Source: a virus
Lineage: Duplodnaviria; Caudoviricetes
Length of the DNA stretch: 64,000 bases
Direction: 5' to 3' (one strand)
Virus record (IMG/VR): IMGVR_UViG_3300031420_000495
Coordinates: 160,001 to 224,000 of that record
Below, in pieces: positions 12,821 to 58,710 of this stretch (positions are counted from its first letter, which is position 1; every line of letters starts with the position of its first letter). Both the position numbers and the translations under genes were made by a program. Below the pieces are notes generated by a model, which saw only the letters and a program-made list of their open reading frames with translations, did not search any database and was not told the origin of the DNA.

Positions 12821-13044
12821 TATCCCATTTCCAGTTCGCGAGTGACCAGCTCGCATTCGACTTGAAGGACCAGGTCGTCGATGTCGGCAAAGCCGTCGAC
12901 TTCGTAACCGAGCACGGCAGAACCCGCCATGGCCGTCAGCCGCTGAATGTCGAATCCTTCATAGGTATTGTTGACGATGTTCTGTGCTGCCACTGCTTCG
13001 AGGAAAGCTTGGGCAAAATCTTCCAGTTCTTGCAGGCGGCTCAT
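12820..13044 (-). CDS. hypothetical protein
   Basis: MSRLQELEDF start, overlaps neighbours. Confidence 0.55.
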   Translation of the reverse strand: MSRLQELEDFAQAFLEAVAAQNIVNNTYEGFDIQRLTAMAGSAVLGYEVDGFADIDDLVLQVECELVTRELEMG

Positions 13045-13250
13045 GCGGTCGTGATCCCTTGAAATTCGACGTTGTTGTACATCCACAGCAGGACTTCCTG
13101 CGCGTTTTCGATCTGATAGCCACGCTGGGCACATGCGCCCAGACAGTAGTCGAGCGTGGCATTGACCAGCAGCTCTTCGCCATTGTAGATCGAAGCGTAC
13201 ACGATGCCCGGATGACGGACGCTCAATTTTGGTTTGACAGTTACCAGCAT
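13041..13250 (-). CDS. hypothetical protein
   Basis: ORF. Confidence 0.55.
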   Translation of the reverse strand: MLVTVKPKLSVRHPGIVYASIYNGEELLVNATLDYCLGACAQRGYQIENAQEVLLWMYNNVEFQGITTA

Positions 13251-24217: not shown

Positions 24218-25720
24218 TTAGCAGTCGATTTCTACCGCGTAACCCCACAGGTAGTCGATATGATCGGTGACCAGATCAGCATCGGCCAGGTCCAGCGTAC
24301 GGCCCTTGTATGGAATGTACTCGAGTTTCAACGTACGATCGCCTTCGAGGTCGGCGGATTTCACGACGATCTGCGGCACATAGTTGATACGTTCCATGCT
24401 GCGAGCCAGCGCATTGCGAATGTTGCGATAGCCGACTTCATCGTGGATTTCGCTCACGATCGCAGTGATGTGGCCGTCGTCATCGTCGCCTTCGTCAGGT
24501 TGACCTTGATCGTACGAGATGGTGAACAACCGCAGATCACGGATGACCTTCGGCGAAAGCCACTGCGCGATGAAGCTGTCGTCGCGGTATTCGAACGCGG
24601 CTTCTTTTACAGCATCTTGCCACTTGCGGCCCATCAGATGCGGGAACCATTCACGATCTTCGTCGGTCGGATTCTCGCACATGCGCTTGACGTCCATCAG
24701 GATCGCGAATCCGAGTGCGTACGGATTCGGTCCGCTGTACCAGCGATCACGATACACCGGCTGGTAGATCACCGCACTGTGGCTTTCCAGGAAGAACAGG
24801 AAAGCGTCCGGCGAGATGAAACCCTTTTCTTCCAGGCGGGTCATGATGTAGTAGTGGCAGAACGATGCGAAGCCTTCGTTCAGGTTCTTCGTCTGGCCCT
24901 GCGGGTAGAAGTACTGGTTGACCTTGTAGACGATGCGGATGATTTCGCGTTTCCACTGCGGCAAGTTCGGCGAATACTTCATGATGAAGTACAGCAGGTT
25001 TTCTTCTTCCTCGACCGAGTCCTCGGCATCATGCTCGCTCAGGTCGACCTCGCGGAACGACGTCTTCTTGAGGATGATGTCCAGCTCTTTTTGCTTCTGG
25101 TCTTCGTCGGCCAGCAACTTGATGAGGCGTGCTTCTTCGCCCATGCGCGGTTGGTGCTTGCGCTTGAACTTGTCGACACCGTGTGGTGCCAGCGCGTGCG
25201 CAGCATCGAGAACCATCTCGACTTCTTCCTCGCCGTAACGTTCTTCGCACTGGCGAATGTAGTCGCGTGCGAAGATCATGTAGTCGATGATCGAGCCGGC
25301 GTTGGTCCACTGCTTGAAGCATTCGTTGTTCTTGAACACTGCATTGTGACCGATTGCCGCGTGTGCCATCACCATGGTTTGCATGACCATGTTGTTGTCT
25401 TCCATCAGGTAGCTGATACACGGATTCGTGTTGATCACGATTTCGTATGCCAGACCCTGACGGCCGGACTGATACGCTCGGTGGGACTTCAAGAAGTCTT
25501 TACCGAACGACCAGTGATTGTAGTGGATCGGCAGACCCACGGACGAGTATGCGTCGAGCATTTGCTCAGCCGAAATGATTTCGATCGAGTTCGGATAGAT
25601 GTCGACACCCGGCTTCAGGTGCAACTCCTCCTCGGCGATGATTTCGATTTCTTTCCAAATCCTCTCGATGAGGTTTTGGTTCCAGTCCGTATGGCTGGTG
25701 ATGTACAATGGCTCGCTCAT
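24218..25720 (-). CDS. spoVR: SpoVR/YcgB family protein
   Basis: GLPIHYNHWSFGK, AYEIVINTNP, TKNLNEGFASFCH, NPYALG. Confidence 0.95.
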   Translation of the reverse strand: MSEPLYITSHTDWNQNLIERIWKEIEIIAEEELHLKPGVDIYPNSIEIISAEQMLDAYSSVGLPIHYNHWSFGKDFLKSHRAYQSGRQGLAYEIVINTNPCISYLMEDNNMVMQTMVMAHAAIGHNAVFKNNECFKQWTNAGSIIDYMIFARDYIRQCEERYGEEEVEMVLDAAHALAPHGVDKFKRKHQPRMGEEARLIKLLADEDQKQKELDIILKKTSFREVDLSEHDAEDSVEEEENLLYFIMKYSPNLPQWKREIIRIVYKVNQYFYPQGQTKNLNEGFASFCHYYIMTRLEEKGFISPDAFLFFLESHSAVIYQPVYRDRWYSGPNPYALGFAILMDVKRMCENPTDEDREWFPHLMGRKWQDAVKEAAFEYRDDSFIAQWLSPKVIRDLRLFTISYDQGQPDEGDDDDGHITAIVSEIHDEVGYRNIRNALARSMERINYVPQIVVKSADLEGDRTLKLEYIPYKGRTLDLADADLVTDHIDYLWGYAVEIDC

Positions 25721-27099
25721 TTCACTTTGCTCCCGCGTTTGCGATAAATCGTTTTGAATGCGTCGAACACTGCATGCTCGTCGGCGATCTTAATCATCGC
25801 CAGCTTCTTGTTGTTCGATGCGATGCTTTGCATCACAGACCACAACGTTTGGCTGCTGCCGAATCCGGCGCCGAATGATTGACCGACTTGCACGTAAACT
25901 GCGTGACGGAGCTTGGACAGCAAACCCGACTCGACGATTTCTTTGACGATGGCAGGATTGTCAGTGTCCCAGTTGTCGCCGTCGCCAGCATACGACACAT
26001 AGATGTTCGTCTGACTTGCGTCATAACGTTCTTTGATGATCGTGTGCAGCAGTGCCCAGGCTGGAGATACAATTGTACCACCAGACTTGCGCGTTGTGAA
26101 GAATTCTTCTTCAGTCAGCTCTTCGGCTTCGTCGGTGTGCGCGATGAAGATCAGGTCAGTTTGCGGGTACTTCTTGACGATGAACGCGTATTGCAGGGTG
26201 AAGAACTTGCGGGCCATACGTTTCTTTTCTTCGTCCATCGAACCCGAGATGTCCATCAGCATGCACAGCACCGCGTCGGATGCTTTGACTTGAACCTTCT
26301 CGGTTTTGCGGTAACGCAGGTCGACTTCTTCGTACAGGCCGATGCCGTCGATCTTTTTCTTCAGTTCAGCGATACGAGTCGAAACAGTTTGCACGCGCTT
26401 CGCCCACAGATCAGTGCTGCCCATCGCGCTTGCATCGAAGTCGTCGGCCATCAGGTATTTCAGCTCGTCTTCGAGTTCCATCAGTTCATCGCGCGAATCT
26501 TTCGTCAGCGCGAGGCGACGTGCCAGCGAATGCTTGAACGACTTGACAACGGCGAGCTGGCCTGGGTTACCAACCTTCTGGAAACCGGCACGCTTCATGA
26601 CGTGCTCAGGCAAATCCTTCTCGTGCGTTTCTTTCAGATCCGGCAGTTCGCAGTCTTCGAAGAAGACGTCGTAGAATTCCGAACGGCTGATGTTGATGAT
26701 GAAATCATCTTCACCGCTTTCGCCGGGTCCATTGCCGCGTCCGCCCTTACCGCTGCCCGAGCCAGTCGACATTGGGAACTCGTCGCCCTTCAACCAAACG
26801 TCGTTACCGATGAGCACGATTTCGTGTTCACCGGAATTGTGATCGTAGTGGAATGTGGGTTCGTTCAGAGCTTGACGCGCGACTTTGACGGGATTGGTTT
26901 GCGAGTTGGCGCCATGGCTCGATCCAGCTTTGTGGACGCCACCAGCATCGATGTCTTCCGGCTTCGCGTTGCGAATCGAATCGCGAATACGCTTCAGCAG
27001 TTTCTGTCGATTGTTTGACGATTTGCCGCGACCAGTTTTGCGGCGGTCCACGAAAATGAAGTTCGTGGTAACTGGTGCTTTTTGGCTTTCATCACTCAT
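25717..27099 (-). CDS. yeaH: YeaH/YhbH (DUF444, vWA) protein
   Basis: KSSNNRQKLL, LMDISGSMDE, SGGTIVS, YAGDGDNW. Confidence 0.95.
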   Translation of the reverse strand: MSDESQKAPVTTNFIFVDRRKTGRGKSSNNRQKLLKRIRDSIRNAKPEDIDAGGVHKAGSSHGANSQTNPVKVARQALNEPTFHYDHNSGEHEIVLIGNDVWLKGDEFPMSTGSGSGKGGRGNGPGESGEDDFIINISRSEFYDVFFEDCELPDLKETHEKDLPEHVMKRAGFQKVGNPGQLAVVKSFKHSLARRLALTKDSRDELMELEDELKYLMADDFDASAMGSTDLWAKRVQTVSTRIAELKKKIDGIGLYEEVDLRYRKTEKVQVKASDAVLCMLMDISGSMDEEKKRMARKFFTLQYAFIVKKYPQTDLIFIAHTDEAEELTEEEFFTTRKSGGTIVSPAWALLHTIIKERYDASQTNIYVSYAGDGDNWDTDNPAIVKEIVESGLLSKLRHAVYVQVGQSFGAGFGSSQTLWSVMQSIASNNKKLAMIKIADEHAVFDAFKTIYRKRGSKVK

Positions 27100-27316
27100 T
27101 GCATTTCTCCTTTTTCCGGAACAGCCGTTCAGCTGCAACAGAAGCTGTTGTAGGGAAATTGAATGGCGAATCATCAGACCATTCAATTTCCCGACTTTCA
27201 TGATCTACGACCGTAACAGACTGAGAAAGGCTGAATTTGATTTCATCAACCAAATCAGCCTCACTCAAACCGTCATGGTCCACCACGATCATAGTGATGC
27301 GGTGGACCCTGGCCAT
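27092..27316 (-). CDS. hypothetical protein inside prkA operon
   Basis: ORF filling the gap with overlaps. Confidence 0.55.
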   Translation of the reverse strand: MARVHRITMIVVDHDGLSEADLVDEIKFSLSQSVTVVDHESREIEWSDDSPFNFPTTASVAAERLFRKKEKCNE

Positions 27317-29280
27317 TACGCGCTCTTACGGTTGGCGGTGAACCAGCTCACCAGGATTTGCACCTGATGTTCGGTGTAGCCCTTGTCGATCATGCGCTGC
27401 ACGAAACCTTGATGTTTCTCTTCGGTTTCCTTGTCTTGCTTCGGACCGAACGCGATGACCGGCAGAATCTGTTCCGTAGCCGAGAACATGCGTTTCTCGA
27501 TCACGGTCTTGATCTTTTCGTACTGGTCCCAGCGCGGGCTGTTGCCTTCGTTCTTCGCTTTGTAGCGCAGCACGTAGTGCACGATTTCGTTACGGAAGTC
27601 CTTCGCGTTGGTGATCGCGGCGGCCTTCTCGATTTCTTCCAGCTTGCTGTTGAGCGCTTCGCGGTTCATCAGCGTGTGGGTTTCCGGATCGCGGCACTGC
27701 TCGTCGTTGATCCATGCTTCAGCGAACAGCACGTAGCGTTCGAACATGTTCTGGCCGAAGGAGCTGTACGACTCGAGGTAAGCCGTGCGCAGTTCTTTTT
27801 CCAGGAACTCGAAGTATTTCGGTTGCAGGAAGGACTTGATGAAGTCCATGTATTTCTGCTCGCGTTCTTCCGGCAGACCTTCCTTGCGCACCGATTCCTC
27901 GATGACGTACATCAGGTCGATCGGGTTGGCCTGGAATTCTTCCGGACGCAGGTCGAAGACCGACGACAGAATCTTGAAGGCGAAGCGAGTCGACATACCG
28001 GTCATGCCTTCGTCGATACCAGCGTTGTCGCGGTATTCTTCGTACGGCTTCGCATTCGGCATGCGGTCCTTCACGTTCTCGCCGTTGTACACGGCCAGCT
28101 TCGCGTACAGCGTGCTGTTTTCCGGTTCCTTCAGGCGGGTCAGGATCATGAATTGCGAGAGCATCTTCAGGGTGCCCGGTGCGATTGGTGCATCGCGCAG
28201 GTTCGAGCCCTTCAGCATCTTCTCGTAAATCTTGATTTCTTCGTCGACACGCAGGCAGTACGGCACATCAACGATGAACACGCGGTCCAGGAATGCTTCG
28301 TTGGTCTTGTTGTTGCGGAACGCGAACCATTCGCTTTCGTTCGAGTGCGCCACGATCACGCCCATGTACGGCATTGCCGGAATTGCTTCCGTACCGTTGT
28401 AGTTGTGTTCTTGCGTCGCCATCAGCAGCGGGTTCAGGGTCTTGATGTTCGCCTTGAACATTTCGGCGAAGTCCATCATACCTTGGTTGGTACGGTTCAG
28501 GCCGCCGCTGTACGAGTACGCGTACGGGTGATTCTGCGGATACTGTTCCAGCTTGCGCAGGTCAGTCTTGCCGATCAGCACCGAGACGTCTTGGTTGTTC
28601 TCGTCGCCCGGTTCGACTTTCATGACGCCGATCTGGCGATCTTTGTTCGGATACAGCTTGACCACGCTGAAGCGCGTGATGTCGCCTTCGAATTCCTGCA
28701 GCTTCTGCAGTGCCCAACCCGACAGCACGGTCTGGTTCAGGTAGTTGGCAGGGATGCCTGCGTCGGCGATGACTTCGGCGTGGGTCTCGTCGTTCTTGTC
28801 GAACAGAGCCAGCGGCGATTCGAAGACCGGCGAGGTTGCCAATTCCGGATTCTTCTCGTTCGCATCATGCAGAACGTAGATCGGGAACTTTTCCATCAGT
28901 GCCTTCAGGCGTTCGACGATGGACGACTTACCGCCACCGACCGGGCCTTTCAGGTACAGGATTTGTTTGCTTTCTTCCAGGCCGGCCGAAGCGTGGCGGA
29001 AGTAAGCGGCCAGACGCTCGATTGCGTCTTCGGCGCCGTAGAAGTCCTTGAAGGCTTCGTACACGCGGATTTTCTTGTTGCTGTGGATACGCGACAGACG
29101 GGAGTCTTCGCTCGTATCGACGACCTTTGGTTGGCCGATTGCAGCAACCATGCGTTCCGCTGCGGTCGCGTAGGCCATCTTGTCTTTCTTGCACAGATCG
29201 AGATACTGATCCAGCGTCATGACTTCTGGTTTGGCGAACTTCGCTGCGTAAGACGAAGAGAGTGCGGAAAGATTGCTCAT
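27316..29280 (-). CDS. prkA: PrkA/YeaG AAA+ serine kinase
   Basis: KQILYLKGPVGGGKSS, NQDVSVLIGK, GMTGMSTRF; TAAATA upstream. Confidence 0.95.
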   Translation of the reverse strand: MSNLSALSSSYAAKFAKPEVMTLDQYLDLCKKDKMAYATAAERMVAAIGQPKVVDTSEDSRLSRIHSNKKIRVYEAFKDFYGAEDAIERLAAYFRHASAGLEESKQILYLKGPVGGGKSSIVERLKALMEKFPIYVLHDANEKNPELATSPVFESPLALFDKNDETHAEVIADAGIPANYLNQTVLSGWALQKLQEFEGDITRFSVVKLYPNKDRQIGVMKVEPGDENNQDVSVLIGKTDLRKLEQYPQNHPYAYSYSGGLNRTNQGMMDFAEMFKANIKTLNPLLMATQEHNYNGTEAIPAMPYMGVIVAHSNESEWFAFRNNKTNEAFLDRVFIVDVPYCLRVDEEIKIYEKMLKGSNLRDAPIAPGTLKMLSQFMILTRLKEPENSTLYAKLAVYNGENVKDRMPNAKPYEEYRDNAGIDEGMTGMSTRFAFKILSSVFDLRPEEFQANPIDLMYVIEESVRKEGLPEEREQKYMDFIKSFLQPKYFEFLEKELRTAYLESYSSFGQNMFERYVLFAEAWINDEQCRDPETHTLMNREALNSKLEEIEKAAAITNAKDFRNEIVHYVLRYKAKNEGNSPRWDQYEKIKTVIEKRMFSATEQILPVIAFGPKQDKETEEKHQGFVQRMIDKGYTEHQVQILVSWFTANRKSA

Positions 29281-29346: not shown

Positions 29347-29763
29347 TTAAACTACTTCACCTTCCGATACGTGGTCAAGATGGTTCATTCTACCATGAAC
29401 TACGGCTCCGGTTTCGATGATTAGTTCGCGATACAGAATTTTTTCAGCCAAGAGCGTTGCGCCGGCTTTTACTGCGAGGGTGCCTTCAACGCGGATCGTT
29501 TTGCAGACGACTTTGCCGGTGATGATGACATTTTGAACTTCGATGTTGAGCTGCTTGTCGATCGGTTCCAGCAGTTGGCCGCCGACGTGGAGGGTTGTCT
29601 TTGCAGAAACTTTACCGTCTACTTGTTCGCCTTGCACGGAAGACAGGTACGCACTTCCCTCGATCAGGGTCGTGGAGTTTGCAGCGATCAGCAGCTCACC
29701 GTGGATAACGGTGCCTTTGCCGATCAGTGAGTCGAAACCGCGGGAGCGAAAAAGTTTGGTCAT
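29347..29763 (-). CDS. bactofilin (polymer-forming cytoskeletal protein)
   Basis: SLIGKGTVIHGEL...VIITGKV...LIIETGAVVHG beta-helix repeats. Confidence 0.8.
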   Translation of the reverse strand: MTKLFRSRGFDSLIGKGTVIHGELLIAANSTTLIEGSAYLSSVQGEQVDGKVSAKTTLHVGGQLLEPIDKQLNIEVQNVIITGKVVCKTIRVEGTLAVKAGATLLAEKILYRELIIETGAVVHGRMNHLDHVSEGEVV

Positions 29764-30317
29764 GTAAAAGTTCTCTTCAAAGTTAAAAAGGTGTAGGAAA
29801 TTCCAGAGTCCGTTTGCGGAGCACTGATGTATTCAAGACTCCATTCTATCCCTATTTTCAACTGATTTAGAACAAATATTTTCCAGTTGACGAGGTCGTG
29901 CTGTAGAGTAACATCTGCGCCCGAGTTCGTATCGACAAGTGTCAAGTAGATACGATCGACAAGTTGCAGGTCAATTGCTTGATCGTAAATGCTTGCACCG
30001 CCGATGATCCAGAGTTCGCCGTCGCAACTGTCCATGAAACTGAGAACCATGTTCTCGAAGTTGTTCACTGGGCAGATGTCTTCGTGATAACCGTTCAGAT
30101 CGCTGGTCACAACGATATTGAAACGATTGGGTAAGCCTTGTGGACGTTTGAACGATTCAAACGTTTTGCGGCCCATGATGACGTCGTGTCCGGTCGTCAA
30201 CTCTTTGAACCGCTGCATGTCGCCGGGTAATTTCCACGGCAGACGTCCATCCGACCAGCCGATCGCGTTCCCACGATCGACGGCCAGAATCATATTGACT
30301 GTATTCTTTGCGCTCAT
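29760..30317 (-). CDS. folA: dihydrofolate reductase
   Basis: NAIG..GRLPWKLPGDMQRFKELT..IMGRKTFES..WIIGGASIY. Confidence 0.95.
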   Translation of the reverse strand: MSAKNTVNMILAVDRGNAIGWSDGRLPWKLPGDMQRFKELTTGHDVIMGRKTFESFKRPQGLPNRFNIVVTSDLNGYHEDICPVNNFENMVLSFMDSCDGELWIIGGASIYDQAIDLQLVDRIYLTLVDTNSGADVTLQHDLVNWKIFVLNQLKIGIEWSLEYISAPQTDSGISYTFLTLKRTFT

Positions 30318-30458
30318 TGTTTTCGAAGTTGGTCGCGTCGGTCCAGCCATTGATGAAGTTCGTCGTTGAACTTCTTCACTTCTGCTTCTGTGCAGTCTTG
30401 ACAATCTTCGCAGTCGTAAAGGTTTGCACAGAGCCGACGGATATTACGCTCGCATTCT

Positions 30459-31136
30459 TCAAGCGCTCGCTGGTTGTTCAGATTCATCATCGTCCTTGTT
30501 CATCATGTGCCTGATGAGCGTCAACTGATTGTTGATTTCGAGCTTCGCATTTTCGAAGATCGCTTCTTGGTCCGGAAAGCGGCGGCGAGCTTCTTTGATG
30601 CGCGGCATGAATTCTTCTTCCGTTTCTTTGACGTAGCGCTCGAGGCGCGCTGGCTTGAATACGCCGAACATCGTCGAGACGTTGTCGCAACGGTCTTTCG
30701 TTTTCACCGGTGCAGTGTCTTCGTCTTCGAAGATGGCATCGAGGCTGTACTCGGGATTTTTCTGTCCCAGTATTTCTTTCGACAGCTTCTTCAGCTTCAT
30801 GGCGATCTTCGCACCCCACTTCTGCTCGACTTCTTCGAGAGAAACCATTTTGCCGGTTTCTTTGTTCGGGTCTTCGACCGCGTCATGCAGGAACGTGAGG
30901 ATGTACACGATCACTGGATTGCGGATGTGTCGATGCATGGTCCGCAGTCGCATGAAGATGCCGAGCTGGTGAATGAACTCAGGGTCACCGCCATTGCGTT
31001 TCCCGTTGTGATGCTCGAGCCCGTACTCGAAGGCAGCTAGCACCTTGAAGTATTCTGGGTCTTGTTCAGCCATGCCGAGCAACCAGTAGCGGGTCGCAAT
31101 CACAAGCTTTTCGAACTTGTTAAGTTTGGTTTCCAT
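30459..31136 (-). CDS. HD-domain small alarmone ((p)ppGpp) hydrolase
   Basis: H.GKRNGGDPEFIH, FLHDAVED, VKTKDRCDN. Confidence 0.8.
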   Translation of the reverse strand: METKLNKFEKLVIATRYWLLGMAEQDPEYFKVLAAFEYGLEHHNGKRNGGDPEFIHQLGIFMRLRTMHRHIRNPVIVYILTFLHDAVEDPNKETGKMVSLEEVEQKWGAKIAMKLKKLSKEILGQKNPEYSLDAIFEDEDTAPVKTKDRCDNVSTMFGVFKPARLERYVKETEEEFMPRIKEARRRFPDQEAIFENAKLEINNQLTLIRHMMNKDDDESEQPASA

Positions 31137-31213
31137 GAGTTCCATTGTACACCTTTGTGGAGTGTTCTACAATTTATTTTACATTGATGATGTAAAAAGT
31201 TGTCTAGTCAACT

Positions 31214-32215
31214 TCACGTGATGATGAAGTCGTCGATGATAACGTCGAGATAATCTCGCGCTGCTTGCCTTGCGTCTTCACGAGTCCGCCACGAAGTCGG
31301 ATCGAGTTTGGCCAGCGACGGAATGGCATACTCGAACGGCGCTTCGGAATCCGGGTTGTGATGGATTTCCACTTCGTACCCGCGGTACGAGAAGGTTCGT
31401 ACACCATCAAACTTCTGGTTATACTTCTTCTCCTTGAAGAGGAAACTTACCGGGTCCTTCAGTGTCGCGAGGTTGATGTCGTGCGACACGATTTCCGAAC
31501 GTTGCACCGGACCTTTCGGACGATGCTTCTCGGGAATCTTCGCCAACTCAGCTTCGGACAGCTCACGGTCGACCAGCAGACGACGTGCAAACGTTCCGCG
31601 CTTGAAGAAGTACGGGTACGCCTCGAAGTTGACGCCTTTGTCCAGCATCATTTGACGAAGCTGCAGACCGTTCTTTCCGTTCAGCTGCTTCTGCGAATAC
31701 AGAGCTTGCGCGCCCATCGACACCGCGTTCTTCGTCGCGTCTTGTTGACGCCACAACAGAACGTGATATGCTTCTTGCAAGTTCGGCACGACGTATGCAC
31801 GTGCATCGAAGCACGGCAACAGATGAGCCTTCTGTGGCAGGTAGCCGGCGAGGTTCTTGTTGAACACGGCCGTGGCATACGATGCCGTCAGCGTCTCGAT
31901 CTTCTGGAAGCGGCCGTCGAAAACGAGTTCCGACTTGCTGTCTGGTTCGCTGGTGAAGATCAGCGTGATTTCGTCCGACTGCGTGTAGCCGATGTCGCAA
32001 TGGAAACGCTCGACCAACGCCGACATCGTAAGGATCATCAGCTCCGACAGGTCCACGTCGTATGGGCGTTTCAGACCTTTCGTGAACGTGTGGAAGTTAT
32101 TGCCATCCAAACGCACGATGAGAGGTTGGCCTTTGAAAGCCCTGCGTGAAGTTGAAGGCGCTTCGTACGCCTTCATGCGATCGCCGATTTGTGTCTTGTC
32201 AGTGCGGTCCGTCAT
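31214..32215 (-). CDS. thg1: tRNA(His) guanylyltransferase Thg1-like protein
   Basis: RMKAYE, VRLDGNNFHTFT, YTQSDEITL, CFDAR, WRQQDATKN. Confidence 0.92.
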   Translation of the reverse strand: MTDRTDKTQIGDRMKAYEAPSTSRRAFKGQPLIVRLDGNNFHTFTKGLKRPYDVDLSELMILTMSALVERFHCDIGYTQSDEITLIFTSEPDSKSELVFDGRFQKIETLTASYATAVFNKNLAGYLPQKAHLLPCFDARAYVVPNLQEAYHVLLWRQQDATKNAVSMGAQALYSQKQLNGKNGLQLRQMMLDKGVNFEAYPYFFKRGTFARRLLVDRELSEAELAKIPEKHRPKGPVQRSEIVSHDINLATLKDPVSFLFKEKKYNQKFDGVRTFSYRGYEVEIHHNPDSEAPFEYAIPSLAKLDPTSWRTREDARQAARDYLDVIIDDFIIT

Positions 32216-32477
32216 AGTCAGTTTCCGTTGGTGGGTTGCGACGCTCGCTGTTGCGAGCGTCGTTACAGTCGCTGATGTATTGCTCCAGCGTAGTGATGCG
32301 CAGAATGAATGCGGCAATCACGAATTCGGTGAGGGCAGTATGCCATTGACGATTCAGCAAGGCCATGACCATGTTGAAAAGCGTCATACCCATGATGATC
32401 CTCCAAATCCAAAGCATTGTTTGGTCTTGGTGATATGTGCTCAGATAACGGTTGAGCGACCTGCGCACTTTTGTCAT
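32199..32477 (-). CDS. membrane hypothetical protein
   Basis: Two hydrophobic segments. Confidence 0.55.
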   Translation of the reverse strand: MTKVRRSLNRYLSTYHQDQTMLWIWRIIMGMTLFNMVMALLNRQWHTALTEFVIAAFILRITTLEQYISDCNDARNSERRNPPTETDYDGPH

Positions 32478-33376: not shown

Positions 33377-33435
33377 TGTTGTTTCTCCATGAAAAAAGGA
33401 GACCGAAGTCTCCTTTATATTCTACCCCGAAGGGA

Positions 33436-35058
33436 TTAGAAGTTCGCGATGATCTGCGGTGCGGCCGAGTCGAAACCGGCGATGTCCAGCATACCGCCGT
33501 CTTTCGGATCAGCGATCGTGAACTGCGTGACCGACGTACCGATCACAACCGACTTCGCATTCTTGTTCACGTTCGCGCGGTACTTTGCGAGAGCCTGAAC
33601 AGGCGACTGACGACCCGAGTTGGTTTCGTTGTCGGTGATGATGACGAACTTGTCGACTTTGTACTTGTGCGCCGCAGCGTACTCGTAGGTCTTCGCGCAG
33701 TCGGTGCTGCCGCCGTTCCAGTTCGCTTTTTCCATCACGTTCAGCACTGCGTCGAGACGCATGCTTGGCGAGATTTTCAGTTCCACGAGGTCTTGCTTGA
33801 AACCAACCACGTGGCTGTTCGGCTGATTGCGAATCACGCCCATTGCCATACATGCCGCAACTTCCGCTGCGTTCAGGTTTGGCGAGCCGTTCACGTTCGA
33901 ACCCCACATCGAGCCGGAGATGTCGACACCTACGAGGTAGTTGTCGTCAGTCTTTTCGGCTGCGGCGAATGCAGCGTAGAACGCGTCATCCAGTGCGGTA
34001 ATGATGCGCTGATCCGGAGTCCAGACCAACGAACCACGCTCACCATGGCCGGCCTTGTACTGCTTCATTGCCTGCAGGATCGTGATTGGGTGCACGCGAC
34101 CACGACGAATTGCTTCGACGTCGGTCAGCTTTGCGACAGCCAGCTTCGAGCCTTCGGACAGCGGGCCGAATACACCGTGTGCGGACAGCGAACCCAGTTT
34201 ACGGATCAGGGCTGTCATACCCATGTTGCGGACCAGAGCCAGCAACACGTCTTTGTCTTTCAGGAACTGGGTCGGCACCATTTCCCAGGTCAGCAGGTCG
34301 GAACCTTCGATCAGACGCAGAACGTCTTTCTTGTCGGTTGCGCGCTTCAGGTACTCGAAGTCAACGAGGACTTGCGGTACTTCTGCGCCTTCTGGCAGCT
34401 CACCTTTTACGGAGTAGCGGAACAGGTTGGACTGCTGGTCGGACGATGGCTTCACGTGCGCGAGACGCAGAACGTCGCGGTGTGCCCAGCCGTTACGCTG
34501 TTGGTACTTCAGCATCTGCACTGCCAGCTTGTCGATCGTCTTGCCGGTGTACCATGCGGCAACACCACGCTTTGCTGCAGCGTTCCACTTGCCCAGCGCG
34601 TCCAACATCGACACGAACAGGAACAGGTGGGTACCGGTACGGCAGACCTTTGGCAGGGCTTCGTACGCAGCAGCGACGGTTTCGGCATTGCCGAAGACAG
34701 CAGCCAGCGCGAGCGCCACGACTGCTGGATCGTTCTTCGGAGCGCGGCCGGCGAGCGAGTATTCGACGATGCGGTTGACCACGCGCAGACCGTCTTCTTT
34801 GATGCAACGCTTGATCACATCGAAGGACATCTTCGTGGTTTCTTTCGCGCCGACGTAGTAGCCAGCGGATTCCGAACCGATCATGAGGAATCGGTCAAAC
34901 ACGCCGAAATGATCGAGCGTGAACGTGAAGGCACCGCTGTTGTTCCGCTTCATCTCTGCTTCACGGCCTGGGACCGGAGCTTGCAGTGGTGGAGTGGAAG
35001 TCTTCGCCATGTTGGTCGAAGATGCGTTTGCGAGGTCGGTGTAGATGGATGACGACAT
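33436..35058 (-). CDS. rsr: Ro60/Rsr TROVE-domain RNA-binding protein
   Basis: NNSGAFTF, RFLMIGSE.GYYV, KYQQRNGWAHRDVLRLAH, vWA DISGSM, GGSTDC, ITDNET. Confidence 0.93.
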   Translation of the reverse strand: MSSSIYTDLANASSTNMAKTSTPPLQAPVPGREAEMKRNNSGAFTFTLDHFGVFDRFLMIGSESAGYYVGAKETTKMSFDVIKRCIKEDGLRVVNRIVEYSLAGRAPKNDPAVVALALAAVFGNAETVAAAYEALPKVCRTGTHLFLFVSMLDALGKWNAAAKRGVAAWYTGKTIDKLAVQMLKYQQRNGWAHRDVLRLAHVKPSSDQQSNLFRYSVKGELPEGAEVPQVLVDFEYLKRATDKKDVLRLIEGSDLLTWEMVPTQFLKDKDVLLALVRNMGMTALIRKLGSLSAHGVFGPLSEGSKLAVAKLTDVEAIRRGRVHPITILQAMKQYKAGHGERGSLVWTPDQRIITALDDAFYAAFAAAEKTDDNYLVGVDISGSMWGSNVNGSPNLNAAEVAACMAMGVIRNQPNSHVVGFKQDLVELKISPSMRLDAVLNVMEKANWNGGSTDCAKTYEYAAAHKYKVDKFVIITDNETNSGRQSPVQALAKYRANVNKNAKSVVIGTSVTQFTIADPKDGGMLDIAGFDSAAPQIIANF

Positions 35059-35115
35059 GTGTATTTCCTTCACGATAATTTATACGGCTGCACGCGCAGC
35101 AAAGAGCAACAACTC

Positions 35116-35401
35116 ACTGAGAAACAAAATTGCAATCGAGAATTTCAGCGTGTCAAAGTTTGATCTGCCTCCAATTACGGTCAGCAGCAGTGAACGCCTA
35201 CTCCGCATGAATAGCATGCAGTAACTATCAGAGTTTCTATCTCTGCAATATCAAGTTTCAGGCACTTGCAAATTGCCGTATACCGCATACGGCGACGTCT
35301 GTTACTTCTGGCTTGTCTTTCTAACTCGCGTTAAAAGAACAGAGAGCTTTTAGTTTTCAGTTTACGATTAAAGGATAATCGATACGCGGCGGTTTCTCAG
35401 T
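35116..35401 (-). ncRNA. long (286 nt) Y-RNA-like RNA candidate
   Basis: Ends pair (ACUGAGAAAC/GUUUCUCAGU), bulged C, upper stem AUCGA/UCGAU followed by UUAUCC; next to rsr. Confidence 0.55.
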
Positions 35402-35423
35402 TTGTTGAAGTTATGACCTAGTG

Positions 35424-35508
35424 AAAAGAGCGACAAAGATACAGGAACGGATTTCAATTGGGCGTCCGAAGACAATAATGGAGATAACCGTAAACCTTTC
35501 GGTCGCTT
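35424..35508 (-). ncRNA. Y RNA candidate
   Basis: AGCGAC-C-GAAAGGUUUACGG-UUAUCUC...CCGU...CUUUGUCGCU-CUUUU; next to rsr. Confidence 0.75.
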
Positions 35509-35772
35509 AGTTCATTGTGGGCTTTATGATATTGCCCACTCGATTCGCTACAGTTTCTGCTGCAGCATCAATCTATATATGCATTATACAACGTGTTTTT
35601 GAACTTTTGGAACTTTATTTTTGTTCAACCGGTTTGACTGGTTCGAACAGATGGCCATCGCCATCAGGTGCAGAACATGGACCGGTGCGCGAGACACTAT
35701 CACACCAAATACATTTCCACACCAGCTTTGCGCGTTCGTCATCAGTCAGTGCAGACATTCAACGACGATCGC

Positions 35773-36351
35773 TCATTTCGCAGTTTCCTTTGCGTACAAG
35801 ATATTCTCGACACAAGCGAAGATCATACCAGGAATTTCGGGGATTTGTGCGATTCCGTTGACAATATTTGCGGGACCGTAGTACGTCATCTCGTCCGGCG
35901 TGTCGTGCTTAGGCTGCTGCACGATGATGAACTGGTAGATGTCTTTGTCACGGTACGAACCGATGACGGGTCCGGTGTCGACGACTTTCACGACTTCGAT
36001 GCCAGCTGCTTTCAAAGTCTCCATTATTTCTTCGGTCGGAATTTCTTCGCCGGCAGCTTGACGTTCGGCAATTTTCGCAACAGCTTCCAGCCGAGCGCGA
36101 TCGTATTCTTCCGCTTTGTTGATGCGATCTGCTTCAGCAATCTCTTCCGGCGGAATCGTGGACGCCAGAATGTTGACGGTGACGAACAGGCATATCGCGT
36201 AGCTGATGAACCCGAATGGAATCAGCAGCAACCATGCGAGCGGAACCAGATACGTACCTGCCCACCATCCAGCTGCGAACATGATTACCCACCATGCAAT
36301 CTTGCAGCGACGAAGAGCCTTCTTCAGACGCTTGTCCATTTTCTCAGTCAT
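35773..36351 (-). CDS. membrane hypothetical protein
   Basis: N-terminal TM segments. Confidence 0.65.
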   Translation of the reverse strand: MTEKMDKRLKKALRRCKIAWWVIMFAAGWWAGTYLVPLAWLLLIPFGFISYAICLFVTVNILASTIPPEEIAEADRINKAEEYDRARLEAVAKIAERQAAGEEIPTEEIMETLKAAGIEVVKVVDTGPVIGSYRDKDIYQFIIVQQPKHDTPDEMTYYGPANIVNGIAQIPEIPGMIFACVENILYAKETAK

Positions 36352-57767: not shown

Positions 57768-57895
57768 TGGTGCCGACGGCTGGATTCGAACCAAGCCCTA
57801 GTCTTTTCGTAGAAGATAACCGTTCACTGACGGTCACATTGCTGCGACAAAACTTGTAAACGACGTTTCTGTGCTGTCCACTACACTACGTCGGC
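57768..57895 (-). ncRNA. 128-nt tRNA-like RNA with large insertion in the anticodon arm
   Basis: GCCGACG/CGUCGGC acceptor, D-arm, UUCGAAU, CCA; ~55 extra nt. Confidence 0.7.
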
Positions 57896-58242: not shown

Positions 58243-58329
58243 TGGTGGGCGCACAGAGAATCGAACTCTGTCTGGACTTTCGTCTCGGCGGGTTAAAAGC
58301 CCGCTTCCTACCCATTTGGAACTACGCCC
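58243..58329 (-). tRNA. tRNA-Lys(UUU), long variable arm
   Basis: GCGGG-CUUUUAA-CCCGC; 87 nt. Confidence 0.8.
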
Positions 58330-58336
58330 GTTAGGT

Positions 58337-58412
58337 TGGTGGGTGCGGTGGGAGTCGAACCCACAACCTAACGGGTAAAAGCCGTTTGCTCTGCCAGTTG
58401 AGCTACACACCC
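58337..58412 (-). tRNA. tRNA-Lys(UUU)
   Basis: Canonical cloverleaf. Confidence 0.92.
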
Positions 58413-58468
58413 ATAAGTTTGTCACATTTGTCACTAGACATGACAGTCACTCCTTATGGTTAATAATC

Positions 58469-58543
58469 TGGACCCACCTACAGGAATCGAACCTGTGTCT
58501 TCGCGTTCGTAGCGCAATGCAATATCCACTATACTAAGGTGAG
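58469..58543 (-). tRNA. tRNA-Arg(ACG)
   Basis: CUACGAA loop. Confidence 0.88.
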
Positions 58544-58549
58544 TATGTT

Positions 58550-58625
58550 TGGTGCCGCCTACTGGTTACGATCCAGTCCCTCTTGCTTTTCAGGCAAGCG
58601 CTTCCACCAGGTTAGCTTAAGCGGC
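58550..58625 (-). tRNA. tRNA-Phe(GAA)
   Basis: CUUGC-CUGAAAA-GCAAG. Confidence 0.88.
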
Positions 58626-58631
58626 AATGTT

Positions 58632-58705
58632 TGGCGACTCGTAGGGGAATCGGACCCCTTTCTTACCCTGGACAGGGGTAGGTAATACCAATATACGAAC
58701 GAGCC
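58632..58705 (-). tRNA. tRNA-Asp(GUC)
   Basis: UACCC-CUGUCCA-GGGUA. Confidence 0.88.
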
Positions 58706-58710
58706 ATCGG

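What the first reader, a model, noticed from the sequence alone, without database searches (positions are those of the whole stretch)
33436..35600. Phage Ro60 (Rsr) with an adjacent compact Y RNA resembling the metazoan Y RNA 5' strand
Seen: upstream of the TROVE gene, 35508-35424 reads AGCGAC-C-GAAAGGUUUACGG-UUAUCUC...CCGU...CUUUGUCGCU-CUUUU. The ends pair with a single bulged C, followed by an internal loop, an upper stem, UUAUC and a U tail. Known: bacterial rsr genes neighbour Y RNA genes, Ro60 binds a bulged-C helix, and human Y1 begins GGCUGGUCCGAAGGUAGUGAGUUAUCUC (from memory). Inferred: a phage-encoded Ro60-Y RNP for RNA quality control or tRNA protection. This RNA is not of the tRNA-mimicking YrlA type.
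Basis: partly seen in the sequence, partly recalled or inferred. Interest (0 to 1): 0.85.

Follow-up and report, generated by a model that had tools for sequence, protein, structure and literature searches.

The report
Phage Ro60 with four Y RNAs
An uncultured giant phage carries the RNA-surveillance protein Ro60 together with four candidate partner "Y RNAs" that share one docking stem, including a 290-base one and one built like a complete tRNA, a format not described so far in the papers I could read.

Summary
Window 33436-35058(-) encodes a full Ro60 (TROVE + Ro60-vWA). Upstream, at 35507-35429, the sequence forms the described helix with a bulged C, followed by UUAUC. Single-sequence folding is not better than chance. 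The support is comparative: a covariance model finds exactly one copy upstream of Ro60 in 24 related phage loci, and the stems covary.

Corrections:
- The "U tail" is an internal loop. A covarying outer helix extends the RNA to about 35515-35413.
- This RNA (Y1) is one of four that share a Ro60-docking module: helix, bulged C, G.U/A-U, internal loop, second helix, UUAUC.
- Y2 (35404-35113, about 290 nt) lies between Y1 and the gene and is closed by a covarying 10-13-bp helix.
- Y3 (57768-57895) is a tRNA body with CCA whose anticodon arm is replaced by the capped docking stem. This is a circular permutation of YrlA.
- Y4 (60493-60575) is a short hairpin in the tRNA array.

Rfam Y_RNA and YrlA models do not match Y1 or Y2. 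Phage Ro60/Y RNA pairs are already known, so this is a new variant. The tRNA-format Y RNA and the giant Y RNA are the novel parts. Ro60 binding and expression are untested.

The parts
33436..35058 (-). Ro60 (Rsr) gene, 540 aa: TROVE ring plus Ro60-type vWA domain with the MIDAS motif D-x-S-x-S (VDISGSM).
   Evidence: Pfam TROVE 4.5e-28 and vWA_Ro60 4.9e-51. PHROG 850, RNA-binding protein, 3e-72. PDB 1YVP 2.1e-97 and 2NVO 1.5e-96, aligned over residues 37-540. D379/S381/S383 are invariant in 6 relatives.
33392..33413 (-). Terminator-like hairpin after the Ro60 stop codon: GGAGAC-UUCG-GUCUCC followed by U6.
   Evidence: Read directly from the sequence. The consensus scan did not list it. Comparable hairpin plus U run follows Ro60 in L001, L002, L003 and L004.
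35413..35515 (-).
- Outer helix P0: 35515-35508 with 35420-35413.
- 3' U-rich internal loop: 35428-35421.
- P1: AGCGAC 35507-35502 with GUCGCU 35434-35429.
- Bulged C: 35501, followed by G.U and A-U.
- P2: ACGG/CCGU.
- UUAUC: 35487-35483.
- Apical UUCG hairpin.
   Evidence: CM R2 scores 95.9 bits (E 4.9e-20) and is the only hit in the window and in G000. There are 24 homologues, one per Ro60 locus. P0 has 6 of 8 pairs and P1 4 of 8 pairs with changes on both sides. G.U is kept in 22 of 24 and A-U in 22 of 24 after the bulge. P1 has 16 distinct covarying strands. P2: contiguous pairs >=4 in 88% of cognate against 56% of non-cognate combinations.
35113..35404 (-). Y2, an approximately 290-nt Y-like RNA.
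- Closing helix: 35404-35392 with 35125-35113.
- Bulged C: 35391.
- Second helix: AUCGA (just before UUAUC) pairs with UCGAU in the 3' motif GAAAUUCUCGAU.
- The interior holds several hairpins and conserved blocks such as GCGAGUUAGAAAGACAAGCC and (G)GUAGG.
   Evidence: RNAalifold on 38 loci: 13-bp closing helix with 9-23 of 38 sequences changed on both sides per pair, and P2 with GC 31 / AU 6 / CG 1. Pairs beyond the 6 used to find the 3' strand: 4.17 in cognate against 0.59 in non-cognate combinations. Present in about 44 loci. MFE -82.6, z -2.55, and the fold closes with the same helix. A 171-nt contig from a soil RNA library lies on 35229-35399 with 2 differences.
35087..35100 (-). Conserved hairpin GCUGC-N4-GCAGC between Y2 and the Ro60 ribosome-binding site (GAAGGAAA, 35071-35064).
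   Evidence: The GCAGCCG motif recurs just upstream of the RBS in most related loci.
35517..35588 (-). Conserved leader ahead of Y1.
- TATAAT-like box: 35588-35583.
- Hairpin H1: GCUGCAG-CAGAAA-CUGUAGC, 35566-35547.
- Hairpin H2: GUGGGC...GCCCAC, 35539-35517.
   Evidence: The sequence block is shared with L001. H1 has a compensatory change (GCUGCAA/UUGUAGC). H2 is replaced there by a different hairpin. RNA-library contigs with 0 differences lie on 35537-35591. The promoter assignment is a reading only; the scan tool found none on this strand.
57768..57895 (-). Y3, a tRNA-format Y RNA. It has a 7-bp acceptor stem, a D arm, a T arm (GGUUCGAAUCC) and an encoded ACCA. The anticodon arm is replaced by a 9-bp helix, an internal loop (AAGUUUU / C-GUCA) and a capped P1 hairpin (GUCGC-AGCAAU-GUGAC). 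UUAUC and a variable arm follow. It lies in the gap between tRNA-Met and tRNA-Thr.
   Evidence: Not called by ARAGORN or Rfam. CM R1 scores 124.5 bits (E 1.7e-29) against <=38.9 bits for ordinary tRNAs. On 26 distinct homologues 96.4% of cells pair against 69.9% in shuffles, and 24 of 30 pairs show changes on both sides. TROVE is present in 8 of 12 host records, and in 5 of 5 that are >=90% complete. The same RNA type lies directly upstream of Ro60 in L071 and L038.
60493..60575 (-). Y4, a compact Y-like hairpin between tRNA-Gln and tRNA-Ile.
- P1: UUCUUUGAC / GUCGAAGAA.
- Bulged C: 60566.
- P2: CAAGG / CCUUG.
- UUAUC, then a pyrimidine-rich apical loop.
Evidence: Sequence and fold: MFE -21.6, z -2.44. 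A homologue lies between two tRNAs in G013 with a covarying P1 (UCCGAC/GUCGGA) and the same loop.
31214..32317 (-). Thg1-like tRNA-His guanylyltransferase / 3'-5' polymerase, two genes downstream of Ro60. Included as context for an RNA-repair role.
   Evidence: Pfam Thg1 2e-30. PHROG 4717 9.4e-70.
30459..31145 (-). HD-domain phosphohydrolase next to the Thg1-like gene. Context only.
   Evidence: Pfam HD 8e-4, below the curated cut-off. PHROG 15275 6.5e-27 and PHROG 990 5e-6.

Best explanation
The window comes from an uncultured jumbo phage: a 257-kb record that is 71% complete, with relatives of 330-376 kb. It encodes a complete Ro60 ring protein and a set of at least four non-coding RNAs that carry the same Ro60-docking module.

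The module consists of:
- a helix P1 ending in ...AC;
- a bulged C;
- G.U and A-U pairs;
- an internal loop whose 3' strand ends in UUU(U);
- a second helix P2;
- a junction with UUAUC on the 5' side and, in Y1-Y3, GAAA(Y) on the 3' side.

This is the bulged-C helix that Ro60 recognises on its outer surface in animals and bacteria. On the far side of P2 each RNA carries a different 'effector' part:
- Y1: small variable hairpins;
- Y2: a conserved ~250-nt multi-hairpin domain;
- Y3: a whole tRNA body with CCA;
- Y4: a pyrimidine-rich loop.

Y1 and Y2 lie head to tail in the 555-nt gap upstream of Ro60. They are probably made with it from one precursor and cut out, as in M. smegmatis. Y3 and Y4 sit between tRNA genes, so RNase P and RNase Z would release them with defined ends.

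Inferred function: as in Deinococcus, Salmonella and Thermus phage phiLo, the Y RNAs gate the Ro60 cavity and tether Ro60 to other proteins. Candidates are the host PNPase and, for Y3, enzymes that recognise the tRNA elbow or acceptor end. This would direct surveillance, trimming or repair of structured RNAs, above all the phage's 28+ tRNAs, during infection. It would act alongside the phage's Thg1-like enzyme, RNA ligase and CCA-adding enzyme.

Shown here: the gene, the RNA structures, their covariation, and their linkage to Ro60. Inferred: binding, processing and role.
For: - Ro60 identity.
- Y1: R2 finds one hit per locus next to Ro60 in 24 loci and a single hit in the whole 257-kb record. 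Covariation of P0 and P1, with invariant AC-C-G / UUU-GU.
- Y2: the long-range helix is supported by RNAalifold and by a cognate versus non-cognate test. The fold z-score is -2.55.
- Y3: R1 separates 125-145-nt RNAs (48-133 bits) from tRNAs (<=47 bits). Every one of the 14 related phage records has 1-4 of them. All five helices covary. It co-occurs with TROVE in 8 of 12 records and 5 of 5 complete ones, whereas only 359 of 50,697 cultured phage records have any Ro60. It lies immediately upstream of Ro60 in L071 and L038.
- Y4.
- Motif match to known Ro60 ligands: GNCGAAN0-1G plus YUAY at nt 22-25 in YrlA/YrlB (PMC4201824), and human Y1 GGUCCGAAGGUAGUGAGUUAUCUC (PMC6052916).
- Precedents: two Yrl RNAs upstream of phage phiLo Ro60 bind it and host PNPase (PMC12135203). 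YrlA and YrlB are processed from one precursor upstream of Rsr (PMC4201824).
- Repair context: Thg1-like and HD genes, and RNA ligase and CCA-type nucleotidyltransferase in the same record.
- Contigs from RNA libraries lie on Y2 and on the leader.
Against: - No binding or expression experiment exists for this phage. The RNA-library evidence consists of assembled contigs, which may derive from contaminating DNA and show neither strand nor ends.
- Neither Rfam Y_RNA nor YrlA matches Y1 or Y2, so membership rests on a short motif and on architecture.
- Y1 is thermodynamically unremarkable.
- P2 of Y1 pairs in only 50% of cells in the model-based alignment, where registers were inconsistent.
- The alignments used for the pair counts were fitted to my own structures.
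- In Y3 the minimum-energy fold prefers a local ACCGU/ACGGU hairpin over P1 and P2. The proposed fold rests on covariation.
- P1 of Y3 is only 4-6 bp, shorter than the 8-bp helix below the bulge in animal Y RNAs (the latter from memory).
- No RtcB and no PNPase partner has been identified in the phage record (for RtcB; PNPase was not searched).
Confidence: 0.75

Rival explanations
1. Y1 and especially Y2 are not free-standing Y RNAs. They are a structured 5' leader of the Ro60 mRNA. Ro60 binds its own leader through the Y-like stem and thereby controls its own translation or mRNA stability (autoregulation). No stable small RNA accumulates.
For: - Y2 ends 51-73 nt before the start codon in most loci and is followed by a conserved hairpin and the RBS. 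There is no terminator in between.
- In L003 a promoter-like site sits directly in front of Y2.
- No terminator-like site was found between the leader and the gene.
Against: - In L013, L014, L017 and L072 there are 200-400 nt between Y2 and Ro60, and in three of them (L013, L017, L072) I read an ATG-led frame in that stretch. The link to the RBS is therefore not obligatory.
- The RNA ends pair with each other as in all Y RNAs.
- The same module occurs in Y3 and Y4, far from any mRNA.
- In M. smegmatis, Y RNAs upstream of rsr are cut from the precursor (PMC4201824).
- This reading does not exclude processing; both could be true.
Confidence: 0.15
2. The first reader's element is simply an intrinsic terminator or attenuator (a stem followed by a U run) that ends or modulates transcription coming from the upstream tail genes. 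It has no relation to Ro60.
For: A U run (CUUUUC, 35428-35423) follows the 3' strand of the stem.
Against: - The stem partners are about 70 nt apart and AU-rich, unlike a terminator hairpin.
- The scan tool finds no terminator there.
- The U run is enclosed by a covarying outer helix.
- It is replaced by non-U sequence in L013, L017 and L046.
- The conserved AC-C-G / UUU-GU junction and UUAUC have no role in termination.
Confidence: 0.03
3. The four RNAs are real structured RNAs, but they serve another partner or purpose: for example decoys for host tRNA-targeting nucleases or modification enzymes, or scaffolds for another phage protein. Under this reading, the resemblance of their stem to the Ro60 site is convergent or incidental.
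For: - No binding data exist.
- Y3 and Y4 lie 22-25 kb from Ro60.
- Rfam Y RNA models do not match.
- Four fragmentary records with Y3-type RNAs show no TROVE gene.
Against: - Y1 and Y2 are tightly adjacent to Ro60 in dozens of loci.
- Y3-type RNAs lie next to Ro60 in L071 and L038.
- TROVE is present in all complete records that carry Y3, against a background of about 0.7% of cultured phage records.
- The module matches the experimentally defined Ro60 recognition elements point by point (PMC4201824).
- A decoy role for the tRNA body is compatible with Ro60 binding.
Confidence: 0.07

Closest known systems
Bacterial and phage YrlA / YrlB RNAs (Chen et al. 2014, PMC4201824; Rfam RF02553)
   Same: - Encoded upstream of Ro60 on the same strand, with more than one Y RNA per locus.
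- The 5' strand carries (N)CGAA(N)G, followed about 10 nt later by YUAY (UUAU at nt 21-24 of Y1, against nt 22-25 in Salmonella YrlA).
- The stem is formed by the 5' and 3' ends.
- Y4 resembles the YrlB/Yrn2 type: 'long hairpin with small pyrimidine-rich loop'.
- Y3 has the YrlA parts in the same cyclic order: docking 5' strand, UUAUC, V arm, T arm, acceptor, D arm, docking 3' strand.
   Different: - RF02553 gives no hit on Y1 or Y2 (E<=10) and only <=21.5 bits on tRNA genes of this record.
- Y1 and Y2 have no T or D arms.
- Y2 is about 290 nt, against 80-130 nt for described Y RNAs.
- Y3 is circularly permuted relative to YrlA. Its ends lie at an open 7-bp acceptor stem with encoded CCA, and the docking stem is capped. 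[quoted passage not shown]
- Six cultured Ro60 phages have no R1-type RNA. Three of them were also searched with RF02553 and show sub-threshold canonical YrlA hits.
Metazoan Y RNAs (Rfam RF00019; X. laevis Ro60-Y RNA structure 1YVP)
   Same: - Terminal helix with a single bulged C followed by G.U and A-U.
- 5' strand (G)ACCGAA against GGUCCGAA.
- ...G-UUAUCUC at the top of the stem, as in human Y1 (PMC6052916).
- The Ro60 protein aligns over its whole length (2.1e-97).
   Different: - No RF00019 hit.
- No Pol III-type 3' U tail; the U run is internal.
- An extra outer helix is present.
- The context is a bacterial phage, with co-transcription with Ro60 or with tRNAs.
Thermus phage phiLo Ro60 with Yrl1 and Yrl2 (PMC12135203)
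   Same: Phage-encoded Ro60 with two Y-like RNAs upstream of the gene, identified through a CGAA motif in a stem-bulge-stem. There, binding to phage Ro60 and to host PNPase was shown.
   Different: - The proteins are only distantly related (9KOP, E 1.2e-5, against 1e-96 for cellular Ro60s).
- In the passages I read, no tRNA-format RNA, 290-nt RNA or Y RNA in a tRNA array was mentioned for phiLo.
Circularly permuted tRNA genes and other tRNA mimics (tmRNA, viral TLS), as discussed in bioRxiv 10.1101/312249
   Same: Y3 keeps the acceptor stem, D arm, T arm and CCA of a tRNA and sits in a tRNA array. It should therefore be processed like a tRNA.
   Different: There is no anticodon arm. A Ro60-docking stem of about 55 nt takes its place. 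It is not detected as a tRNA by ARAGORN or Rfam.

Membership tests
Ro60 / TROVE protein family | TROVE (HEAT-repeat ring) domain | tested here: met
   PF05731, 4.5e-28, 99 bits against a cut-off of 23.
Ro60 / TROVE protein family | C-terminal Ro60-type vWA domain with MIDAS motif | tested here: met
   PF25045, 4.9e-51. VDISGSM aligns with IDVSASM of X. laevis Ro60. D379/S381/S383/T452/D476 are invariant in relatives.
Ro60 / TROVE protein family | Full-length similarity to Ro60 proteins of known structure | tested here: met
   1YVP 2.1e-97, 9NEN 1.4e-96, 2NVO 1.5e-96, covering residues ~23-540.
Y RNA in the functional sense (Ro60 ligand) | Helix formed by the 5' and 3' ends, with a bulged C and a conserved 5' strand | tested here: met
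   Y1. Y2. In Y3 the same helix is capped by a loop. Y4.
Y RNA in the functional sense (Ro60 ligand) | Encoded close to Ro60 or co-occurring with it | tested here: met
   Y1 and Y2 lie within 460 nt of the start codon on the same strand in 24 and about 44 loci respectively. Y3-type RNAs co-occur with TROVE in 8 of 12 records and 5 of 5 complete ones, and are adjacent to Ro60 in L071 and L038.
Y RNA in the functional sense (Ro60 ligand) | Physical binding to Ro60 and dependence on Ro60 for stability | not testable with these tools
   Needs EMSA or RIP; see the next steps.
Y RNA in the functional sense (Ro60 ligand) | Accumulates as a discrete small RNA | tested here: inconclusive
   Only assembled contigs from RNA libraries lie on Y2 and the leader, and none on Y1. 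They give no strand or ends.
Rfam Y_RNA (RF00019, metazoan) | Covariance-model match | tested here: not met
   No hit at gathering threshold in the window and none at E<=10 in 34900-35800.
Rfam YrlA (RF02553) | Covariance-model match at or above 69 bits | tested here: not met
   No hit on Y1 or Y2. The best in the whole record is 21.5 bits, on tRNA genes. As a control, the model gives sub-threshold hits of 32-42 bits in L039 and in phages CcrColossus, G and Bxz1.
Rfam YrlA (RF02553) | GNCGAAN0-1G near the 5' end, followed by YUAY | tested here: met
   Y1 reads GACCGAAAGG ... UUAU at nt 21-24. The first G of the motif is displaced by one base. Y2, Y3 and Y4 have CCG followed by other bases (GCC, GUC, GCU), so only NCG is invariant.
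Rfam YrlA (RF02553) | tRNA-like effector domain (T arm, closed acceptor-like stem-loop, D arm) | tested here: not met
   Y1, Y2 and Y4 have no tRNA-like arms. Y3 has T and D arms, but with an open acceptor stem plus CCA and a capped docking stem, i.e. permuted.
tRNA (for Y3) | Cloverleaf with anticodon arm, detected by tRNA finders | tested here: not met
   ARAGORN and Rfam tRNA do not call 57768-57895. The acceptor, D and T stems are present and covary, and the anticodon arm is replaced.

The most novel reading that the evidence does not exclude
Y3 represents an undescribed class: a 'tRNA-format' Y RNA. It is a genuine tRNA body (7-bp acceptor stem, D and T arms, encoded CCA) whose anticodon arm has been replaced by a capped Ro60-docking stem. 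It would be processed out of phage tRNA arrays by RNase P and RNase Z.

It would be the un-permuted counterpart of bacterial YrlA and so a living intermediate for the proposed origin of YrlA from tRNA. It would physically couple Ro60 to tRNA-recognising enzymes (CCA-adding enzyme, Thg1-like repair polymerase, ligase, possibly a synthetase or EF-Tu), or act as a Ro60-loaded decoy for host anticodon nucleases.

Together with the ~290-nt Y2, this would show that one phage Ro60 is served by a modular family of adaptors far more diverse than those known in cells.
Probability: 0.55. Interest if true: 0.8.

Novelty: new variant of a known kind. Interest (0 to 1): 0.66.

Why it matters
Ro60/Y RNA particles are conserved from bacteria to humans, where Ro60 is a major lupus and Sjogren autoantigen. 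What the variable half of a Y RNA recruits is still largely unknown, and so is the reason bacterial Y RNAs mimic tRNA.

This phage clade offers a natural experiment. It has one Ro60, one conserved docking stem, and four very different effector modules. One of them is a complete CCA-ended tRNA body placed among real tRNA genes and next to tRNA-repair enzymes.

Three questions become directly testable:
- whether the tRNA-like part exists to engage tRNA enzymes;
- how YrlA arose from tRNA;
- how phages use Ro60 during the struggle over tRNA integrity with their hosts.

The work also supplies two covariance models (R1, R2) for RNAs that current Rfam models miss.

Tried and rejected
- **Rfam.** The gathering scan of the window and the E<=10 scan of 34900-35800 gave only tRNAs and a meaningless RAGATH-27 hit at E 8.7.
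- **Promoter and terminator scan.** Nothing was found on the minus strand.
- **blastn against cultured phages.** Only a 187-nt match inside the Ro60 coding region.
- **Free search for a 6-nt complement as a control.** Too permissive: 5.68 against 4.97 pairs. I replaced it with extension and non-cognate tests.
- **MAFFT alignments of Y1 and Y3.** These were out of register by 1 nt in places. I therefore built models from hand-checked seeds and re-aligned with Infernal.
- **P2 of Y1.** It remains poorly aligned (50% paired) and is supported only by the offset-consistent complements.
- **Loose pattern CCG-N8-13-RTTAYC in the 257-kb record.** Non-specific: 34 hits against 32 for the reversed control.
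- **Canonical YrlA in L038.** My first reading of L038 as a canonical YrlA was wrong. It is an R1-type tRNA-format RNA.
- **Read laying.** It returned only contigs, so it gives no transcript ends or strand.
- **BLAST of Y4.** One homologue only, and an exact loop-motif scan found only that phage and its near-duplicate.
- **R1 on six cultured Ro60 phages.** No tRNA-format Y RNA, so there is no cultured model system yet.
- **RtcB.** Absent from the record.
- **Two review papers.** Not held in the library.


Full report
**1. What is at the coordinates**

The minus strand of 33436-35058 encodes a 540-aa protein with a TROVE domain (4.5e-28) and the Ro60-specific vWA domain (4.9e-51). It aligns over its whole length with the solved Ro60 proteins of Xenopus (1YVP, 2.1e-97), human (9NEN, 1.4e-96) and Deinococcus (2NVO, 1.5e-96). 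This includes the MIDAS motif. It is only remotely like the one solved phage Ro60, from Thermus phage phiLo (1.2e-5).

The gene is followed by a hairpin plus U run (33413-33392, read). It is preceded by a 555-nt stretch without a plausible ORF.

The window belongs to a 257-kb IMG/VR record that is 71% complete and comes from a phyllosphere metagenome. It contains a tail sheath gene and 28 tRNA genes. Its relatives are 330-376-kb jumbo-phage contigs, some with terminal repeats. No cultured phage has a Ro60 more than about 40% identical.

**2.

The letters are as quoted:
- AGCGAC (35507-35502) pairs with GUCGCU (35434-35429).
- C35501 bulges, and G.U and A-U follow.
- ACGG/CCGU closes an upper part with a UUCG hairpin.
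- UUAUC lies at 35487-35483.

RNAfold reproduces this, but the stability is ordinary (z -1.69 and -0.78). The single sequence therefore proves nothing.

The comparative evidence is strong. I fetched 75 loci encoding Ro60 proteins 29-82% identical. Most of those with >=55% identity carry, 420-530 nt upstream of the start codon, a 5' strand NNNNAC-C-G... and 57-180 nt further a 3' strand ...UUU-GUNNNN. The variable positions are complementary, with 16 different strand pairs.

A covariance model built from 11 hand-checked sequences (R2) found 24 hits in 421 kb of loci. There was one per locus, always just upstream of Ro60, and 13 were outside the seed. It found only this site in the window and in the whole 257-kb record.

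On that alignment 80.8% of cells pair, against 65.5% in shuffles (0/500) and 32-49% when partners are slid. After the bulged C, the G.U is kept in 22 of 24 and the A-U in 22 of 24.

The same analysis shows an outer helix (35515-35508 with 35420-35413) with compensatory changes in 6 of its 8 pairs. Y1 is therefore about 103 nt (35515-35413).

Its upper helix pairs the 5 nt before UUAUC with a 5-mer at a constant offset from the 3' strand. It changes in step (GACGA/UCGUC, GUUGG/CCAAC, UAUGG/CCAUA ...). My model-based alignment handles this helix badly (50% paired).

**3. A second, much larger Y-like RNA (Y2)**

Between Y1 and the gene the same 5' signature recurs: ...GAGAAAC-C-GCC...AUCGA-UUAUC, with the bulged C at 35391. 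Its partner strand UUUU-GUUUCUC... lies 267 nt downstream.

In about 44 loci a 10-13-bp helix closes 200-340 nt in this way. Pairs beyond the six used to locate the strand number 4.17 on average in cognate combinations and 0.59 in non-cognate ones.

RNAalifold on 38 sequences predicts this helix, with 9-23 sequences per pair changed on both sides. It also predicts a second long-range helix that pairs the bases just before UUAUC with a conserved 3' motif GAAAUUCC-CGAC (GC 31 / AU 6 / CG 1 at one pair).

In the window the 304-nt stretch folds at -82.6 kcal/mol (z -2.55) with the same closing helix. The interior contains several hairpins and strongly conserved blocks that I could not assign. Neither Rfam nor my tRNA-format model matches it.

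Y2 (35404-35113) starts 8 nt after Y1 ends. It stops about 55 nt before the start codon, ahead of a conserved hairpin and the RBS.

**4. Two more in the tRNA array**

A pattern search for the 5' signature gave a third hit inside the tRNA array, in a 140-nt gap that ARAGORN and Rfam leave empty.

The gap holds a 128-nt RNA (Y3, 57895-57768). It has a 7-bp acceptor stem, D arm, T arm and ACCA. In place of the anticodon arm it has a 9-bp helix, an internal loop (AAGUUUU on one side, C-GUCA on the other) and a short capped hairpin GUCGC-loop-GUGAC. UUAUC and a variable arm follow.

This is the Y1/Y2 docking module with its open end closed by a loop, while the RNA termini are moved to a tRNA acceptor stem. 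The cyclic order of parts is exactly that of YrlA. YrlA has been described as resembling a circularly permuted tRNA with a closed acceptor stem and no free CCA (bioRxiv 10.1101/312249). Y3 is the un-permuted form.

Homologues exist in related jumbo phages, and an IMG/VR pattern scan gave some 15 more.

Model R1 scores Y3 at 124.5 bits and ordinary tRNAs at <=38.9. Each of the 14 phage records examined has one to four full-length hits of 48-133 bits. On 26 distinct sequences 96.4% of cells pair (69.9% in shuffles, 0/500; 30-50% slid), and 24 of 30 pairs change on both sides, in all five helices.

TROVE genes are present in 8 of 12 records carrying such RNAs and in all 5 that are >=90% complete. 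The four without are 13-50% fragments. The background is 359 of 50,697 cultured phage records. In two distant loci the R1-type RNA lies immediately upstream of Ro60 (L071, L038).

Six cultured Ro60-encoding phages were searched with R1: CcrColossus, Bacillus phage G, Bxz1, Comrade, Pumpernickel and Forza. None has an R1-type RNA. The first three were also searched with the YrlA model and show sub-threshold canonical YrlA hits.

Y4 (60575-60493) lies between tRNA-Gln and tRNA-Ile. Its features are P1 UUCUUUGAC/GUCGAAGAA, a bulged C, P2 CAAGG/CCUUG, UUAUC and a pyrimidine-rich loop. It has a homologue between two tRNAs of another Ro60 phage whose P1 has changed compensatorily.

R2 also gives weak hits (20-31 bits) at positions close to tRNA-type or Y3-type hits in several relatives.

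**5. How it most likely works**

Established elsewhere:
- Ro60 binds the bulged helix of Y RNAs on its outer surface.
- Y RNAs gate its cavity and tether it to partners such as PNPase.
- Bacteria have several Y RNAs upstream of rsr that are cut from one precursor.
- A phage Ro60 binds two upstream Yrl RNAs and host PNPase (PMC4201824, PMC12135203).

Shown here: four RNAs share that docking module, covary, and are linked to Ro60.

Inferred:
- All four load onto the phage Ro60, and their different distal modules direct it to different partners or substrates.
- Y1 and Y2 are co-transcribed with Ro60 and processed.
- Y3 and Y4 are released by tRNA-processing enzymes.

The neighbourhood fits a role in surveillance or repair of tRNAs and other structured RNAs during infection. 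It includes a Thg1-like enzyme and an HD hydrolase next to Ro60, plus an RNA ligase, a CCA-type nucleotidyltransferase and 28 tRNAs in the same record.

Contigs from soil RNA libraries lie on Y2 (171 nt, 2 differences, one end 2 nt from the start of the closing helix) and on the leader. These are contigs, not reads, and cannot show transcription.

**6. Comparison and novelty**

Phage Ro60 genes with Y-like RNAs are known: 22 phages in Chen et al. 2014, phiLo in 2025, and jumbo phages noted in PMC7824862. The basic claim is therefore a new member of a known kind.

Neither Rfam Y_RNA nor YrlA recognises Y1 or Y2, so they should not be filed under those models. They work like Y RNAs and share the YrlA/YrlB 5' signature.

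In the papers I could read, I found no description of (a) the tRNA-format, CCA-ended Y RNA embedded in tRNA arrays, or (b) a ~290-nt Y RNA with a conserved interior. Two reviews were not available to me.

**Caveats**
- All pair counts come from alignments fitted to my own structures.
- The sequences are related to one another.
- There is no experimental evidence for binding or expression.

Noticed in passing
window 24218-29280 (-): Three adjacent genes: PrkA-type AAA protein kinase (2.9e-152), DUF444/YeaH (1.4e-113) and SpoVR/YcgB (5.9e-135). This is a bacterial stress/sporulation-associated triad carried by a jumbo phage.
   Followed up: no
window 29347-30404 (-): A dihydrofolate reductase (4.2e-36) and a weak bactofilin-like protein (3.8e-6, just under the cut-off). 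They lie between the PrkA triad and the HD/Thg1/Ro60 group.
   Followed up: no
window 58243-60481 (-): Several ARAGORN tRNAs are unusually long (82-92 nt: Lys 58243-58329, Asp 59265-59348, Glu 59357-59441 and 59529-59611, Asn 60297-60388, Ile 60397-60481). They duplicate the anticodons of normal-sized neighbours. Earlier notes of the scan describe them as deviant isoacceptor sets.
   Followed up: no
L038:2714-2837 and L071:181-304: In two distant phage loci (Ro60 43-44% identical) a tRNA-format Y RNA sits directly upstream of Ro60 (R1 50.3 and 56.5 bits). Rfam calls the L038 copy a tRNA with an insert of about 50 nt.
   Followed up: partly
window 35416, relative seen in run X10: In a freshwater RNA-library contig of a related phage, the sequence directly 5' of Y2 is the 3' end of a tRNA (…GGTTCGAATCC…) instead of Y1. 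Y2 can therefore also follow a tRNA.
   Followed up: no
L013, L014, L017, L072 (between Y2 and Ro60): These loci carry an extra 200-400 nt between Y2 and the Ro60 start. In L013, L017 and L072 the stretch holds an ATG-led frame, which begins MEKLSS… in L013 and L017. The hairpin before the RBS differs from that of the other loci.
   Followed up: no
G003 59178-59282 and 211306-211537; G005 35834-35935; G007 145562-145646; G012 12982-13113; G001 245436-247328: Weak R2 hits (20-31 bits) lie close to tRNA-type or Y3-type hits in related jumbo phages. They suggest further small Y-like RNAs among the tRNA genes.
   Followed up: no
window 35547-35566 and 35517-35539 (-): Two hairpins lie in the conserved leader ahead of Y1. 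One has a compensatory change in L001. The other is replaced there by an unrelated hairpin at the same place. Their role (processing signals?) is unknown.
   Followed up: partly
G000 229243-229704 and 243534-243896 (outside the window): The same phage record encodes an RNA ligase (PF09414, 3.8e-27) and a CCA-adding-type nucleotidyltransferase (PF01743, 3.5e-23), but no RtcB.
   Followed up: partly
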